Positions 3 through 64,000 of a stretch of DNA of 64,000 nucleotides are shown piece after piece. A program made the position numbers and the translations under genes. The stretch is taken from the UHGV virus genome UHGV-0307316. One strand, 5' to 3'. The notes beneath the pieces are model-generated. The model was not told the DNA's origin. It did no database searches and was given only the letters and a program-made list of their open reading frames with translations. This DNA is from a virus. Position 1 is the first letter of the stretch. The number at the start of each line of letters is the position of its first letter.

Positions 3-1379
3 GGTTCTCAAGAGGTCTTTTTAAATACTAATGCTGACTTGGTACTCTATGGTGGTGCTGCTGGTGCTGGTAAGACTGCCGCATTGTTAATGGACTCTTT
101 AAGATTTATTGAAGACCCTAACTATAATGCTGTATATTTCCGTCGAAATACAACACAGTTACAAGGTGGTTTATGGCCTGCTGCAAAGAAACTATTTGGT
201 AAGTTTGGTGGAATTCCTCACGAGCAGAAGATGACTATCACATTCCCTTCTGGGGCAACTATCAAGTTTACCTATCTAGAACTTGAAAAGCACGCTGAAG
301 GTCATCAGGGTATTGAATACTCAGCTATTTACTTTGACGAAGGCACACACTTCTCTGCTTCACAGATTTCATACCTACAAACCCGTCTACGTTCTGGTGC
401 TGAAGGCGATTCATACATGAAGATTTCCATGAACCCAGACAGAGACCACTTTATTTACGATTGGGTAGAGCCATTCTTAGATGAAGAAGGCTACCCAGAC
501 CCTGAAAAATGTGGTCGTATTCGTTGGTATGTGATGAACGATGGTGTGATGGTTTCTGATTGGGAGAGAGACAAGATTCTTGAAATGTTCCCCCTTGAGA
601 TTCCTCAAACATACACCTTTATTTCTGGTACGATTGATGATAACCCAATCCTTGACTTCTTAGAGCCTAAGTACCGTGGTAAGTTGGAAAACAACACTCC
701 TGTAAACGTTGCAAGACTTCGTTTCGGTAACTGGAAGGCTCGTGCAGAAGGTTCAAACTATTGGCAAAGACAATGGTGTGAAATTGTTGATTCACTCCCA
801 GAAGATGTATTTGATGTTAGAGCATGGGACTTAGCAGCAACTTTACCATCTGAGATTAACCCTAATCCAGACTGGACAGCAGGTGTTAAGATGGGTAAAT
901 CTAAAAAAGACGGTTGCTATTATATCATTGATGTAGTAAGATTTAGAGATAGACCCTCTGGAGTCGAAACACAAATTAATTTGACTGCTGAAAGTGACGG
1001 TAAGCGAACTGGTATTTTTATCCCTCAAGACCCAGGCGCTGCTGGTAAATCCTACGCAACATCCCTCATCAGGAAACTTGCCGAGAAAGGTTATCGAGCA
1101 AGAGCCAAACCAACAAATAAAGATAAAGTTACCCGCTTTGCGGGATTTTCTGCTGCTTCTGAAGCTGGACTTGTAAAAGTCTTGAGAGGTAGTTGGAATG
1201 AAGCTTACTTTCAAGAACTTGAAGGCTTTTGTGGTGACGGTAAAACTAAAGATGACCAAGTGGATGCTACCAGTGATGCTTTCAACAGTCTTAACGAAGT
1301 TAAATTATTCAAGCCACCATCAATGGGTGCTCACACAGATTTAGTGAGAGGAAACCCATATGAGGGGCTTAGACGTTGA
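3..1379 (+). CDS. terL: Terminase large subunit, 5'-partial (frame is open upstream of the TTG at 39 to the window edge)
   Basis: Walker A P-loop GGAAGAGKT at the N-terminus of the listed ORF; upstream in-frame translation (..SQEVFLNTNADL..) has no stop; acidic nuclease-like C-terminal half; first gene of the structural block. Confidence 0.8.
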   Translation, partial: GSQEVFLNTNADLVLYGGAAGAGKTAALLMDSLRFIEDPNYNAVYFRRNTTQLQGGLWPAAKKLFGKFGGIPHEQKMTITFPSGATIKFTYLELEKHAEGHQGIEYSAIYFDEGTHFSASQISYLQTRLRSGAEGDSYMKISMNPDRDHFIYDWVEPFLDEEGYPDPEKCGRIRWYVMNDGVMVSDWERDKILEMFPLEIPQTYTFISGTIDDNPILDFLEPKYRGKLENNTPVNVARLRFGNWKARAEGSNYWQRQWCEIVDSLPEDVFDVRAWDLAATLPSEINPNPDWTAGVKMGKSKKDGCYYIIDVVRFRDRPSGVETQINLTAESDGKRTGIFIPQDPGAAGKSYATSLIRKLAEKGYRARAKPTNKDKVTRFAGFSAASEAGLVKVLRGSWNEAYFQELEGFCGDGKTKDDQVDATSDAFNSLNEVKLFKPPSMGAHTDLVRGNPYEGLRR

Positions 1380-11034: not shown

Positions 11035-19143
<8,109 letters not shown>

Positions 19144-43362: not shown

Positions 43363-43380
43363 CATCTGTAGGATTCGAAA

Positions 43381-59566: not shown

Positions 59567-59588
59567 GGCTGCTTCGGCGGCCTTTTTT
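59567..59588 (+). terminator. Rho-independent terminator (UUCG tetraloop family)
   Basis: GGCTGC-TTCG-GCGGCC followed by TTTTTT. Confidence 0.6.
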
Positions 59589-59649
59589 ATTTGTATTTTG
59601 TGCAGAGTGCTGTATAATTGTTGTCACGATAAACTAAACAGGAGAACCA

Positions 59650-60198
59650 ATGAAGAAATTGATTCTAGGTTTGTGCTTAATGTTTACAGCACACTTATCT
59701 TATGCAGTTGACTGCCCAGAGCTATCAATTAGCCAAAAAGTAAACATGTTAAAAGCTTACCAGTATGGTGAGAACAACATGGGTAAAGGTTGGGGTATCA
59801 CTCTAGCTGCTATAGCCTTACAAGAGTCAGAGTTAGGTCTGAAGGTAGAGAATAAAAAGACACATGATTATGGTATTTTCCAGAATCACTTGAAGACTGT
59901 TGTAAAGCGTAACAAAATTAGTCCTAATATGGCTAAAAAGAAACTCTTAAAAGACTTTAACTATGCTGCGAAGGAAACTCACAAAGAGCTTGAGTTTTGG
60001 ACAAAGGTGCATGGTCAGCCAAAGTCAAAGAAGACTTTACAAAAAGTTTTAGCATCATATAATGCTGGGTATTCGTACAAAATCCCTAAAGCTAAGAAAT
60101 ATTCTCAAGATGTCTATAACAACATGAAAGTCATTGCTCAATGTGAATTTGCAACAAACATTTCTAAGGTAAACCATGAAAAAATTAAAAAAGTCTGA
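59650..60198 (+). CDS. Lytic transglycosylase (SLT domain) with signal peptide; candidate endolysin
   Basis: Signal peptide MKKLILGLCLMFTAHLSYA; SLT motifs QESEL (ES), DYGIFQ (GLMQ-like), SYNAGYS (AYNxG). Confidence 0.7.
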   Translation: MKKLILGLCLMFTAHLSYAVDCPELSISQKVNMLKAYQYGENNMGKGWGITLAAIALQESELGLKVENKKTHDYGIFQNHLKTVVKRNKISPNMAKKKLLKDFNYAAKETHKELEFWTKVHGQPKSKKTLQKVLASYNAGYSYKIPKAKKYSQDVYNNMKVIAQCEFATNISKVNHEKIKKV

Positions 60199-62918: not shown

Positions 62919-63704
62919 ATGGGTATTGTAAAAATCATCAATGGTGATATCTTTGCTGCATTTGATAAAGGTAAGTTTGACATCATTGGTCATGGTTGTA
63001 ACTGCATGAACCTAATGGGCGCAGGTATCGCTGACAAGATTTCTAAACTTTACCCAAAAGCATATGAGACCGATACAGAAGTTTATCTCTATGCAGGTGG
63101 TATAGGTCACAAACCCTGTGAGAATTTACTAGGTAATTTCTCTGTAGCACGCTTAAAACAAGGTCGTATAGCTAACCTTTACACTCAGCTTAAGACTGGT
63201 AAAGATGCCCGATACAGTGCTTTAGAGTCATCTTTGAAGCAACTTAACAGATACTGTGAAGTTAATCAGTTGAAGAAAGTTGGTTTACCTATGATTGGTG
63301 CAGGTATCGGTGGACTTGACCCTCAAGCCGTCACAGTTATCATCAATCAGGTGATGAAGAGTGTAGATGTTTATCTATATGTCTATGAAGGAGAGATGTA
63401 CCACAAGTTACTCTCAGGTTGGAAGAACTACTGTGAACCAGAATACTTTGCAGGTGTAGCAGTGTTCACAGATAACGCAGTTACCCTCTTCAGACGAAGA
63501 AAAGGTAAGATACATCAAAGTAACCCTCCGGTTGAAAAGATGTCTCTAAGTAACGCTCTAGTTACCCACCTGTCAAAGAGCAATCACAGAATTGCTGTAA
63601 CATTTGGTAGTGATGCAGAAGCTTATATCTATGCAAGAACTGATGAGGATATTGAGGCAATCTTCTCTTCACCAGAAGTTACCTTCTTAGACGCAAAGAA
63701 CTAA
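62919..63704 (+). CDS. Macro-domain protein (TARG1/DarG-like ADP-ribosyl hydrolase, putative) with C-terminal unknown domain
   Basis: N-terminal 140 aa resemble TARG1-type macro domains: GDIF...IGHGCNCMNLMGAGIA and GLPMIGAGIGGLD. Confidence 0.5.
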   Translation: MGIVKIINGDIFAAFDKGKFDIIGHGCNCMNLMGAGIADKISKLYPKAYETDTEVYLYAGGIGHKPCENLLGNFSVARLKQGRIANLYTQLKTGKDARYSALESSLKQLNRYCEVNQLKKVGLPMIGAGIGGLDPQAVTVIINQVMKSVDVYLYVYEGEMYHKLLSGWKNYCEPEYFAGVAVFTDNAVTLFRRRKGKIHQSNPPVEKMSLSNALVTHLSKSNHRIAVTFGSDAEAYIYARTDEDIEAIFSSPEVTFLDAKN

Positions 63705-63750
63705 GAAACTCTGTAGGATATTCACAATAGCCTAAGCCTTTCTTATCTGG

Positions 63751-63960
63751 TAAATTTTTCAGGTAAGGAGGGCTTTTTCATTTCAGATTTGTGCAGGTAG
63801 AGTTCTGTAGAGAAATCTATAGAGAAAATTTTGAACTCCAAAGAGAAAATTCATTTTCAAACTGTGCAGGTAATCTCCAAAGAGCTTTTTCATTTTCAAA
63901 ACGTGCAGACCCCGCTCAGGTCGGGCAAGAAAAATCATTTTAGAATTGTGCAGGTAGGTT
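63751..63960 (+). repeat. Array of four direct repeats TCATTTTCA(A/G)A-N2-3-TGTGCAG(G)TA in terminal intergenic tract
   Basis: GTGCAG at 63791, 63864, 63903, 63947, each preceded by (T)TCATTT(T)CA(G/A)A; related TTTTGTGCAGAG at ~59596. Confidence 0.6.
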
Positions 63961-64000
63961 TTTATAGACAGCCAGCCCAACCCCTCTCCCCCTCTTACTC

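What the first reader, a model, noticed from the sequence alone, without database searches (positions are those of the whole stretch)
63751..63960. Four direct repeats (TCATTTTCAAA..TGTGCAGGTA) in the terminal intergenic tract
Four copies of a ~22-bp motif occur in one orientation within about 180 bp of non-coding sequence after the macro-domain gene, with a related copy at ~59583-59605. This looks like iterons of a replication origin or clustered phage-specific promoters; the final 40 bp is C-rich (CCCAACCCCTCTCCCCCTC).
Basis: seen in the sequence. Interest (0 to 1): 0.5.

Follow-up and report, generated by a model that had tools for sequence, protein, structure and literature searches.

The report
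Conserved four-site DNA array in Felix-O1-like phages
Four copies of a 25-base two-part DNA motif sit in one gene-free gap at the head of the early-gene block of a Felix O1-like phage; the array is kept across the whole phage subfamily and occurs nowhere else in the genome, so it is almost certainly a docking array for one DNA-binding protein, but whether it controls transcription or starts replication cannot be decided from sequence.

Summary
Four same-strand copies of a bipartite motif, (A/T)5-TCATTT-N7-GTGCAG, start at window 63778, 63851, 63890 and 63935. They lie between the terminator of the macro-domain gene and the first early promoter of a Felixounavirus.

- **Unique in the genome.** Across the reconstructed 88-kb genome only these four sites score high. 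One weak fifth site lies inside a sigma-70 promoter after rIIB. A genome-wide class of phage promoters is therefore refuted.
- **Not the genome end.** The experimentally determined terminal repeat of the relative UAB_Phi87 maps about 7.2 kb away.
- **Conserved.** The same array in the same position occurs in Mooglevirus, in Erwinia Kolesnikvirus phages, and in an unclassified 88-kb phage contig. That contig has almost no detectable DNA similarity to known phages.
- **Constraint pattern.** The two motif blocks are nearly invariant, while the 7-nt gap and the inter-site spacers drift. Spacing and copy number are flexible.
- **Negative tests.** No Rfam family, no RNA fold signal, and no copy in E. 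coli genomes, plasmids or bacterial genomes.

Best reading: an array of binding sites for one unidentified sequence-specific DNA-binding protein. I narrowly favour transcriptional control of the early-block boundary over a T4 oriE-like origin. The element appears undescribed and is of moderate interest.

The parts
62919..63704 (+). Macro-domain ('phosphatase', T4 Tk.4-like) gene. It is the last gene of the rIIA-rIIB-...-macro block and always lies immediately upstream of the array.
   Evidence: ORF. Pfam Macro match, E = 1e-7. The same gene precedes the array in Mordin, ESh21, phiEa104, Coenus, L052 and the novel L035/L144 contig.
63734..63785 (+). Intrinsic terminator of the macro-gene transcript: a 17-pair hairpin at 63734-63775 followed by a T-run. 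The T-run is also the 5' part of site 1.
   Evidence: Terminator scan on the equivalent L002 5729-5770. It is the dominant hairpin in the RNA fold. The stem shows compensatory changes between Felix, Mordin and L052 types. It is annotated as a terminator in Barry, KhF1 and ASO1A.
63772..63796 (+). Site 1: GCTTTTTCATTTCAGATTTGTGCAG
   Evidence: 36.2 bits; 32.0 bits with the independent matrix. The TCATTT and GTGCAG blocks are invariant in 26 distinct relatives' sequences.
63800..63844 (+). Long spacer between sites 1 and 2. It has its own short tandem repeat (TCTGTAGAGAAA-like, two to three copies) and is variable among relatives.
   Evidence: the repeat finder family D2. Higher column entropy than the sites. 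The stretch from here through site 2 is deleted in L018 and L052.
63845..63869 (+). Site 2: GAAAATTCATTTTCAAACTGTGCAG
   Evidence: 35.3 bits; 31.3 bits. It appears dispensable: deleted in L018/L052 and point-mutated in L013 (TCCATTT) and L049 (GTGTAG).
63884..63908 (+). Site 3: GCTTTTTCATTTTCAAAACGTGCAG. It is followed by ACCCC instead of GTA.
   Evidence: 35.9 bits; 33.1 bits.
63929..63953 (+). Site 4: GAAAAATCATTTTAGAATTGTGCAG. With its upstream GGTCGGGCAAG it is the ortholog of Erwinia-phage site 3 (GGTCTGGCAAGAAAAATCATTTTCGATTTGTGCA).
   Evidence: 31.6 bits; 26.6 bits. Cross-genus comparison.
63970..64000 (+). C-rich, G-poor tract, cut by the window end. In full it is a homopyrimidine mirror repeat, CCCCTCTCCCCCTC-TTA-CTCCCCCTCTCCC, and its complement fits a G-quadruplex pattern. 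It is not an obligatory part of the element.
   Evidence: mirror symmetry; G3+N1-7 x4 on the minus strand. 15 of 27 distinct Felix/Moogle sequences carry it and 12 carry an unrelated allele. This explains the BLAST break at window 63959.
59581..59618 (+). Fifth, weak site: CCTTTTTTATTTGTATTTTGTGCAG (59581-59605), directly after the rIIB terminator hairpin (59567-59582). It overlaps the -35 (TTGTAT, 59591-96) and spacer of a sigma-70-type promoter with -10 TATAAT (59613-18) for the gene at 59650.
   Evidence: 12.3 bits; 18.3 bits. It recurs 4.17-4.88 kb upstream of the array in most Felix/Moogle loci, and 6.6 kb upstream in L054. TGTGCAG is invariant there while its flanks differ between Felix, Moogle and L054. 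The promoter hexamers are read directly from the sequence.

Best explanation
**What it is.** The four repeats are an array of binding sites for one sequence-specific DNA-binding protein. The protein is most likely phage-encoded and is not identified. Each site is asymmetric and bipartite: an A/T5 run plus TCATTT, then GTGCAG 7 nt further on. The block centres are about 12.5 bp apart, so two adjacent major grooves would be read.

**Where it sits.** The array occupies the gene-free gap between the terminator that ends the rIIA...macro-domain transcription unit and the first strong sigma-70 promoter of the early small-gene block.

**Favoured function (inferred, not shown).** The array controls transcription at this boundary. 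The bound protein would occupy four strong, promoter-less sites here and one weak site that overlaps the -35 and spacer of the promoter after rIIB. It would thereby set the timing or insulation of early versus later transcription. It could act as a repressor or roadblock, as a -35-replacing activator at the weak site, or as a titration reservoir.

**Shown.**
- The sites exist and are unique to this locus.
- Their two blocks are under purifying selection across three named genera and one unclassified phage contig.
- They are not the genome terminus.
- They are not a genome-wide promoter class.

**Inferred.** That a protein binds them, which protein it is, and what binding does.
For: **Uniqueness.** Weight-matrix scans of the reconstructed 88,150-bp genome find only the four sites (31-36 bits; 26.6-33.1 bits with a matrix built from other phages). 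The next hit is the fifth site.

**Conservation of position and orientation.** The order macro gene, then array, then early promoter is kept in Felixounavirus, Mooglevirus, Erwinia Kolesnikvirus and the novel contig L035/L144. L035/L144 shares the rIIA-rIIB-PNK-methylase-macro synteny. It gives no megablast hit in the phage collection, and its only blastn hits are about 110-140-nt stretches over the macro gene.

**Selection pattern typical of a protein site.** Motif columns are invariant in 65 of 100 cases, against 24 of 82 spacer columns (Fisher p = 1.7e-6). Variation is concentrated in the 7-nt gap between the two blocks.

**Independent, redundant sites.** Spacing varies (73/75/77, 39/41, 45 in Felix and Moogle; 37/37/39 in Erwinia phages). 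Copy number ranges from 3 to at least 5.

**Link to transcription.** The fifth site lies in the -35/spacer of a promoter with a perfect TATAAT and a poor -35. TGTGCAG is invariant there while its flanks diverge between genera.

**Not an RNA element.** There is no Rfam match above noise. Fold z-scores are -0.84 on the plus strand and +0.96 on the minus strand. Repeat spacings are not multiples of 3 in all lineages, so the array is not coding.
Against: - No binder is identified. The only recognisable HTH protein (HTH_3, 99 aa) is found in Felix and Moogle genomes but not in the Erwinia phages, which also carry the array. Neighbouring genes show no DNA-binding domain.
- The array lies 110-290 bp upstream of the first early promoter. 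None of the other early promoters carries a site.
- The four array sites overlap no convincing promoter.
- The fifth site's score alone is within the shuffle range, and it is absent from the Erwinia phages and from L144.
- A unique direct-repeat array beside a promoter and an A/T-rich stretch is equally what an origin looks like.
- There are no transcript, ChIP or binding data for any member of this phage group. Literature searches returned nothing.
Confidence: 0.4

Rival explanations
1. Replication origin of the T4 oriE or lactococcal-phage type. The four repeats would be iterons bound by an unidentified phage initiator or accessory protein. The adjacent strong early promoter would supply a host-RNA-polymerase transcript as primer for the T7-like replisome. 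The A/T-rich stretch would unwind, and the G4/H-DNA-prone tract could stabilise an R-loop.
For: - It is a unique locus in the genome.
- It has 3 to at least 5 same-orientation repeats conserved across the subfamily.
- It lies in one of the few large gene-free gaps, about 520 bp.
- A 40-nt window of 80-85% A+T and a TTGACT-17-TAGTAT promoter lie 130-180 bp downstream.
- The replisome is T7-like, with a PolA-type polymerase and a gp4-like primase-helicase (PMC3185647; Toprim and DnaB_C domains). From memory, T7 initiates at its origin from an RNA-polymerase transcript.
- T4 oriE likewise has evenly spaced direct repeats and depends on an early promoter (PMC3016281).
- Iteron initiators often also bind a single site in a promoter, which would fit the fifth site. 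This point is from memory.
Against: - No initiator-like gene was recognised next to the array, nor among the annotated 50 kb of a pharokka-annotated relative that I read.
- There are no DnaA boxes.
- Felix-type spacing of 73/39/45 drifts by +/-2 bp, unlike phased iterons.
- Cumulative GC skew follows transcription direction and shows no inflection at the array. This is weak evidence.
- The structure-prone tract is replaced in 12 of 27 distinct sequences.
- Even for T4 oriE, no link between the iterons and origin activity has been established.
Confidence: 0.3
2. Four tandem promoters of a special class, firing rightward into the early block. They would be recognised by host RNA polymerase together with a phage factor that replaces -35 recognition, as MotA/AsiA do in T4.
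For: - At the fifth site the motif spans about -38 to -20 of a promoter with a perfect -10 and a poor -35. That is the geometry of an activator-dependent promoter.
- Sites 1 and 4 are followed by TAnnnT-like hexamers (TAGAGT, TAGGTT), as read from the sequence.
Against: - The motif does not recur upstream of other transcription units.
- Sites 2 and 3, and most Erwinia-phage sites, have no -10-like hexamer at a fixed distance.
- The consensus scan calls no promoter in the array.
- No phage RNA polymerase or specificity factor is known.
Confidence: 0.08
3. RNA-level element. The repeats would act in a transcript as protein-binding or processing modules. The transcript could be read-through from the macro gene. 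Alternatively it could be a leftward RNA from a candidate promoter (TTGACT-17-TAAGAG or TAGCCT) at the right edge of the C-rich tract.
For: - A well-conserved TTGACT with an A/T-rich upstream stretch faces left in Felix and Moogle, in both alleles (read from the alignment).
- The repeats are strictly co-oriented.
Against: - No Rfam match.
- No excess folding on either strand.
- No conserved hairpins between the sites.
- The candidate -10 lacks the conserved final T in the C-tract allele, and the promoter is absent from the Erwinia phages.
- A strong terminator sits just upstream on the plus strand.
Confidence: 0.07
4. DNA-entry checkpoint analogous to the T5 injection-stop region. The array would mark the inner border of the roughly 7-kb early block next to the right genome end, and would halt or pace DNA transfer until early proteins are made.
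For: - By homology with the experimentally mapped UAB_Phi87 terminal repeat, the physical end lies about 7.2 kb to the right.
- The whole interval between is the early small-gene block, transcribed toward that end.
- From memory, T5 has a repeat-rich non-coding region at the inner border of its first-step-transfer DNA.
Against: - There is no evidence of two-step DNA transfer in any Felix O1-like phage.
- It is not known which end enters first.
- The resemblance is positional only.
Confidence: 0.05
5. Physical genome end or packaging site (terminal repeat or pac).
For: The KhF1 GenBank record begins and ends in this gap with a 377-bp overlap.
Against: - The Bal31- and run-off-mapped 608-bp terminal repeat of UAB_Phi87 (590 nt as extracted from the supplementary PDF) is a different sequence (PMC4837284 Fig. 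S1).
- It is absent from the window.
- It maps to ASO1A 15128-15712, 7.2 kb away.
- The KhF1 overlap starts with N-ridden, low-quality sequence just past the G/C tract, so it is an assembly artefact.
Confidence: 0.02

Closest known systems
T4 oriE iteron cluster
   Same: Both are clusters of same-orientation direct repeats in a lytic myovirus, conserved in syntenic position among relatives, and lying next to an early (host sigma-70) promoter. In both cases function is inferred from the arrangement only (PMC3016281).
   Different: T4 repeats are 12 nt and evenly spaced. Here the unit is about 25 nt and bipartite, with irregular spacing. There is no sequence similarity. The phage groups are unrelated, and the replisome here is T7-like. 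No origin has been mapped in any Ounavirinae phage.
Plasmid and lambdoid iteron origins (RK2/R6K gamma, lambda ori, P1 oriR, P4 ori/crr)
   Same: Three to six direct repeats of about 20 bp in one orientation, unique in the replicon, with an A/T-rich region nearby. In these systems the initiator often also binds a site in a promoter (from memory).
   Different: No cognate initiator gene lies within or beside the array. There are no DnaA boxes. Spacing is not helically phased. The array lies between a terminator and an early promoter, not inside or next to a rep gene.
Asymmetric operator sets of phage repressors (P1 C1 operators, mycobacteriophage L5 gp71 'stoperators'; from memory)
   Same: The sites are non-palindromic, read in one orientation, and one site overlaps a promoter.
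   Different: Those operators are scattered through their genomes in many copies. Here four of the five sites are clustered in one promoter-less gap. The phage is strictly lytic and has no known repressor.
T5 injection-stop region (from memory)
   Same: A non-coding, repeat-rich stretch at the inner border of a terminal block of early genes that is transcribed toward the genome end.
   Different: In T5 the block lies inside a 10-kb terminal repeat and two-step transfer has been demonstrated. Here the terminal repeat is only about 0.6 kb, lies 7 kb away, and two-step transfer is unknown.

Membership tests
Iteron-type replication origin | Three or more direct repeats of about 17-25 bp in one orientation, unique in the replicon | tested here: met
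   Four sites on the same strand, and nowhere else in the 88 kb apart from one weak site.
Iteron-type replication origin | Regular, helically phased spacing of the repeats | tested here: not met
   Spacing is 73/39/45 in the window, with variants of 75/41/45 and 77/39/45. Erwinia phages have 37/37/39, which is even but equals about 3.5 helical turns.
Iteron-type replication origin | Cognate initiator gene adjacent or identifiable | tested here: not met
   Pfam and PHROG scans of the eight upstream genes and of the macro gene show no Rep-like or DNA-binding domain. The annotation of a relative lists only a polymerase, a primase-helicase, a ligase and one HTH_3 protein. Many small proteins remain uncharacterised.
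Iteron-type replication origin | Adjacent A+T-rich unwinding element and/or DnaA boxes | tested here: inconclusive
   There is a window of 80-85% A+T at about 64095-64125 (coordinates continued into ASO1A), but it coincides with the upstream element of the early promoter. No DnaA box with up to 1 mismatch was found.
Iteron-type replication origin | Origin activity (copy-number peak, autonomous or phage-dependent replication) | not testable with these tools
   GC skew shows no inflection at the array, but it tracks transcription direction and is uninformative.
Phage-specific promoter class | Motif recurs upstream of several transcription units | tested here: not met
   Outside the array, only the fifth site at 59581 is both conserved among relatives and inside a promoter. 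With the independent matrix it scores 18.3 bits and the next hits fall from 13.6 bits, all within the shuffle range (maximum 19.1). With the 16-site matrix the fifth site (12.3) and one hit at 43366 (11.6) lie slightly above that run's 10-shuffle maximum of 9.3, and all others are at or below 4.2. TGTGCAGGTA with up to 1 mismatch gives 8 matches against 5.0 expected.
Phage-specific promoter class | Conserved -10 or start element at a fixed distance from the motif | tested here: not met
   The hexamers after GTGCAG differ between sites and lineages. Sites 2 and 3 have none.
Sigma-70 promoters | TTGACA-16..18-TATAAT-like pair | tested here: not met
   No promoter is called within the array. The only plus-strand call in the gap is TTGACT-17-TAGTAT, 170 bp downstream. 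The fifth site does overlap TTGTAT-16-TATAAT.
Direct terminal repeat / packaging site | Coincides with the physical genome ends | tested here: not met
   The UAB_Phi87 terminal-repeat sequence is absent from the window. It maps 7.2 kb away in the near-identical ASO1A genome.
Known structured RNA (Rfam) | Covariance-model match at or near the gathering score | tested here: not met
   The best hit scores 19.5 bits against a gathering score of 50, with E = 0.7. Fold z-scores are -0.84 and +0.96.
Operator array of a transcription regulator | At least one site overlaps core promoter elements | tested here: met
   The fifth site spans the -35 and spacer of the promoter at 59591-59618. TGTGCAG is conserved there while its flanks vary. 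The four array sites themselves overlap no promoter.
Operator array of a transcription regulator | Identified cognate DNA-binding protein | tested here: inconclusive
   The one HTH_3 protein has a distribution (Felix plus Moogle, 261 records) that does not cover the Erwinia phages carrying the array. Its binding specificity cannot be tested here.

The most novel reading that the evidence does not exclude
The array, the adjacent early promoter and the structure-prone G/C tract together form the primary replication origin of Ounavirinae. This would be a new origin type in which a T7-like replisome lacking its own RNA polymerase is started from a host-polymerase transcript, with a still-unknown protein bound to bipartite iterons recruiting it. 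Alternatively, the array is a DNA-entry or early-block boundary checkpoint. In either case it would be the first defined cis-acting control element of this widely used therapeutic and typing phage group.
Probability: 0.3. Interest if true: 0.6.

Novelty: new member of a known kind. Interest (0 to 1): 0.4.

Why it matters
Felix O1-like phages are classic Salmonella typing phages and are common in therapeutic and biocontrol cocktails. Their genome paper states that their temporal control of transcription is unknown (PMC3185647), and I found no study that maps a replication origin in them.

This array is the clearest conserved non-coding signal found in the genome. It is unique in the genome, kept from E. 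coli and Salmonella phages to Erwinia phages, and defined to the nucleotide. It gives a concrete handle for three experiments:
- a DNA pull-down to find the binding protein;
- deletion or GTGCAG point mutants;
- marker-frequency and 5'-end mapping.

It also marks a junction that genome engineers should avoid or could exploit: the border between the conserved core and the hyper-variable early block. If it turns out to be an ordinary operator set, the gain is modest.

Tried and rejected
1. **Terminal repeat or pac site.** Rejected using the published UAB_Phi87 end sequence. The KhF1 record overlap is an assembly artefact with N-ridden sequence.
2. **Rfam and RNA folding on both strands.** Nothing found.
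3. **Sigma-70 promoter scan.** No promoter in the array.
4. **GC and AT skew on the genome rotated to the terminal repeat.** Skew follows transcription direction with no inflection at the array, so it is uninformative.
5. **Array copies outside phages.**
   - The two-copy pattern in 185,579 bacterial genomes gave 44 hits; none carries an array (at most two 16-bit matrix hits per locus), and the two loci inspected are unrelated repeats.
   - The metagenome scan gave 43 hits, none a true array.
   - BLAST against E. coli genomes and plasmids gave no match.
6. **Candidate binder.** Neighbouring genes have no DNA-binding domain. The single HTH_3 protein is not detectable in the Erwinia phages.
7. 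**Known host sites, compared by eye from memory.** DnaA box, IHF, Fis, CRP, marbox, sigma-E, sigma-32, sigma-54, the RfaH ops element and T7-group promoters were considered. None fits all four copies across lineages. Only the DnaA box was tested by computation.
8. **L039 'insertion' after site 3.** The sequence switches to GC-rich foreign DNA, so this is probably a chimeric metagenome contig and not a natural split of the array. The methyltransferase insertion seen in some BLAST hits lies elsewhere.
9. **Literature.** The Felix O1 and wV8 genome papers, the UAB_Phi87 paper and the Bas63 PhageMaP preprint do not mention these repeats. The phiEa21-4 paper was not available.
10. **Coding potential.** Spacings of 73 bp, and of 37/37 bp in the Erwinia phages, break any reading frame. 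The small ORFs annotated here in some records are spurious.

Full report
**Identity of the window.** The last 3 kb of the window is 94-96% identical to more than 200 Felix O1-like myoviruses (Ounavirinae, Felixounavirus). Positions 63700-64000 are 100% identical to Escherichia phage vB_EcoM_ASO1A 7614-7914. The finding lies in a gene-free gap of about 520 bp. On its left is the macro-domain ('phosphatase') gene at 62919-63704 (Pfam Macro). This is the last gene of the rIIA-rIIB-...-macro block. On its right, just beyond the window, is the first of a run of small early genes.

**The observation.** Four same-strand copies are present, starting at 63778, 63851, 63890 and 63935, with spacings of 73, 39 and 45 bp.
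- Aligned without gaps against the copies from other phages, the conserved unit is about 25 nt: G-N-(A/T)5-TCATTT-N7-GTGCAG.
- A weight matrix built only from Mordin and phiEa104 sites scores the four window sites at 26.6-33.1 bits. Whole-genome shuffles reach a mean maximum of 12.2 and an overall maximum of 19.1.
- Site 1 begins in the T-run of a real intrinsic terminator. The terminator is a 17-pair hairpin at 63734-63775 whose stem shows compensatory changes between lineages.
- The C-rich end is real and continues beyond the window.

**Not the genome end.** Felix O1-like phages have short direct terminal repeats: 608 bp in UAB_Phi87, mapped with Bal31 and run-off sequencing, and 581 bp in Pr103Blw. 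The published UAB_Phi87 repeat sequence is absent from the window. It maps to ASO1A 15128-15712. That position is about 7.2 kb to the right of the array, beyond the early block, in a 1.5-kb gene-free gap between convergent terminators. The KhF1 record does start and end inside this gap, but the overlap begins with N-ridden, low-quality sequence just past the G/C tract. I read that as an assembly artefact.

**Not a genome-wide promoter class.** I rebuilt a full genome of 88,150 bp from the window plus ASO1A 7915-32064. Only the four sites score high (31-36 bits). The next hit is the fifth site at 12.3 bits (18.3 with the independent matrix), and everything else is at shuffle level. TGTGCAGGTA with up to 1 mismatch occurs 8 times against 5.0 expected, and three of those are in the array. 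No sigma-70-type promoter is called inside the array. The Felix O1 genome paper reports no phage RNA polymerase or specificity factor, and states that temporal control is not understood.

**Conservation.**
- The same arrangement (macro gene, terminator, array, pyrimidine-rich tract, strong early promoter) occurs in Mooglevirus (Mordin, ESh21) and in Erwinia Kolesnikvirus phages (phiEa104, Coenus). There the sites read TTTTCATTTT-N6-GTGCATAG at 37/37/39-bp spacing.
- A pattern scan of IMG/VR recovered about 30 Felix-like contigs with the array. It also recovered a novel 88-kb contig, L035/L144. That contig gives no megablast hit in the phage collection, and its only blastn hits are about 110-140-nt stretches over the macro gene. 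It keeps the rIIA-rIIB-PNK-methylase-macro synteny. At least five sites follow its macro gene.
- Orthologous sites keep copy-specific flanks across genera. For example, GGTC(G/T)GGCAAGAAAAATCATTTT appears in Felix site 4 and in Erwinia site 3. The array is therefore ancient and not a recent local duplication.
- In 26 distinct Felix/Moogle sequences, 65 of 100 motif columns are invariant against 24 of 82 spacer columns (Fisher p = 1.7e-6). Variation inside the motif falls in the 7-nt gap between the two blocks.
- Spacing drifts by +/-2 bp. Site 2 is deleted in L018/L052 and point-mutated in L013 and L049. The sites therefore look independent and partly redundant.

**The fifth site.** Directly after the rIIB terminator lies CCTTTTTTATTTGTATTTTGTGCAG, followed by AGTGCTG and then TATAAT. 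Read as a promoter this is TTGTAT-16-TATAAT, or TTGAAA-16-TATAAT in Moogle. The motif spans the -35 and the spacer. TGTGCAG is invariant while its flanks differ between Felix, Moogle and L054. A promoter spacer has no reason of its own to be conserved in this way. This is the only direct link between the motif and transcription. The site is absent from the Erwinia phages and from L144.

**Other tests.**
- Rfam gave only noise.
- RNA folding z-scores are -0.84 and +0.96.
- GC skew follows transcription direction with no inflection at the array.
- There is no DnaA box.
- A 40-nt window of 80-85% A+T coincides with the upstream element of the early promoter.
- The array has no match in E. coli genomes or plasmids. 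No true array was found in 185,579 bacterial genomes or in the metagenome collection.
- Neighbouring genes show no DNA-binding domain.
- The only recognisable HTH protein (HTH_3, 99 aa) occurs in Felix and Moogle genomes but is not detected in the Erwinia phages.
- The replisome is T7-like.

**Interpretation.** The data fit one picture well. The sites form a unique, ancient, orientation-fixed array of bipartite asymmetric DNA sites under purifying selection, that is, docking sites for one sequence-specific protein. I put this at about 0.7-0.75. What binding achieves is not shown.
- I narrowly favour transcriptional control of the boundary between the rIIA...macro unit and the early block (0.4 for the full statement). 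The reasons are the promoter-embedded fifth site, the position between a terminator and the first early promoter, and the unphased, redundant sites.
- An origin of the T4 oriE kind is almost as likely (0.3). The array is unique in the genome and sits beside an early promoter and an A/T-rich stretch. T4 oriE has the same look, and its iterons are likewise unproven. Against an origin are the missing initiator gene, the irregular spacing and the replaceable G/C tract.
- Tandem special promoters, an RNA-level role, a T5-like entry checkpoint and a packaging role are progressively less likely. The terminal-repeat version of the packaging role is refuted.

**Novelty and value.** The literature I could read does not describe these repeats. 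The Felix O1 paper lists only perfect repeats of 24 bp or more. The kind of element (a direct-repeat protein-binding array in a phage control region) is well known. This family of sites is new and well delimited. Interest is moderate, at 0.4.

Noticed in passing
window 63970-64000, continuing to about 64010 (ASO1A L012 896-925; L002 5970-6010): The C-rich tract is a near-perfect homopyrimidine mirror repeat, CCCCTCTCCCCCTC-TTA-CTCCCCCTCTCCC, of the kind that can form a triplex (H-DNA). Its complement fits the canonical G-quadruplex pattern. It is bi-allelic: 15 of 27 distinct Felix/Moogle sequences carry it, and 12 carry an unrelated segment of about 60 nt (GGTGGGTGCAGGTGGGGATGTCGCCATTTCTCACAAGG...) whose G-runs are on the other strand. 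It is also C-rich and G-poor, like a Rho loading site.
   Followed up: partly
L003 1-140 and L004 2680-3057 (KhF1, KT184313): The KhF1 GenBank record begins with N-ridden, low-quality sequence immediately past the G/C tract, and its two ends overlap by 377 bp. The structure-prone tract seems to have broken the assembly there. It is not a physical genome end.
   Followed up: yes
window 59567-59621: The rIIB terminator is followed at once by a motif-like site embedded in a promoter (TTGTAT-16-TATAAT) for the gene at 59650 (phrog_600, weak SLT-like match, signal-peptide-like N-terminus). TGTGCAG in the promoter spacer is invariant across Felix and Moogle.
   Followed up: partly
L002 6040-6160 (just right of the window) and the alignment: Between the C tract and the first early promoter lies a very conserved block, AAAAGTCAAGAGAAAAATTTGTAGCGGATTGAAAAATAATTCTTGAYT. 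It could hold a second rightward promoter (TTGAYT-17-TAGTCG/TATTCG, with a poor -10). On the other strand it could hold a leftward promoter (TTGACT-17-TAAGAG or TAGCCT) firing into the array. Neither passes the consensus scan.
   Followed up: partly
L002 6120-8560; L012 1040-7740: The early block is a string of small genes, each preceded by one of two near-identical cassettes. One is a promoter (TTGACAC...TAAATT) plus a GGGAAGGGGATGACCTTCCCC hairpin plus an RBS. The other is a terminator (GGGGCTTA...TAAGCCCC) plus an RBS. These are the 39- and 57-bp repeats noted in the Felix O1 paper. They look like the shuffling cassettes described for T4-type phages (from memory). Gene content of the block differs even between 95%-identical phages.
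   Followed up: no
L012 8129-8713 (ASO1A 15128-15712); L035 600-760 (minus strand): The homolog of the mapped UAB_Phi87 terminal repeat sits in a 1.5-kb gene-free gap between convergent terminators. It is packed with TGTTAAGA/TCTTAACA repeats. In the novel contig L035, a similar TTAACA-rich tract lies immediately after the TCATTT...GTGCA array. In that phage the two repeat systems are therefore adjacent.
   Followed up: partly
L035 / L144 (IMGVR_UViG_3300045988_063805, 88,375 bp): An unclassified Felix-O1-like phage contig with almost no DNA-level similarity to any phage in the INPHARED collection. It keeps the rIIA-rIIB-PNK-macro synteny, carries two HNH endonuclease genes and a DNA methyltransferase in that block, and has a short (148-aa) macro protein.
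   Followed up: partly
L039 4430-4621: After site 3 this metagenome contig switches abruptly to GC-rich sequence unlike phage DNA. It is probably a chimeric assembly and not a real insertion in the array.
   Followed up: partly
window 63507-63563: The C-terminal extension of the macro-domain protein (absent from the 148-aa version in L035) contains an internal 27-nt imperfect tandem repeat: AAGATACATCAAAGTAACCCTCCGGTT / AAGATGTCTCTAAGTAACGCTCTAGTT.
   Followed up: no
L007 1584-1899; L009 1242-1430; L010 1180-1598; window 63783-63980 (-) and 63791-63943 (+): Several GenBank records annotate small 'hypothetical protein' ORFs across the array on either strand. Repeat spacing breaks the frame between lineages, so these are almost certainly spurious gene calls.
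   Followed up: yes
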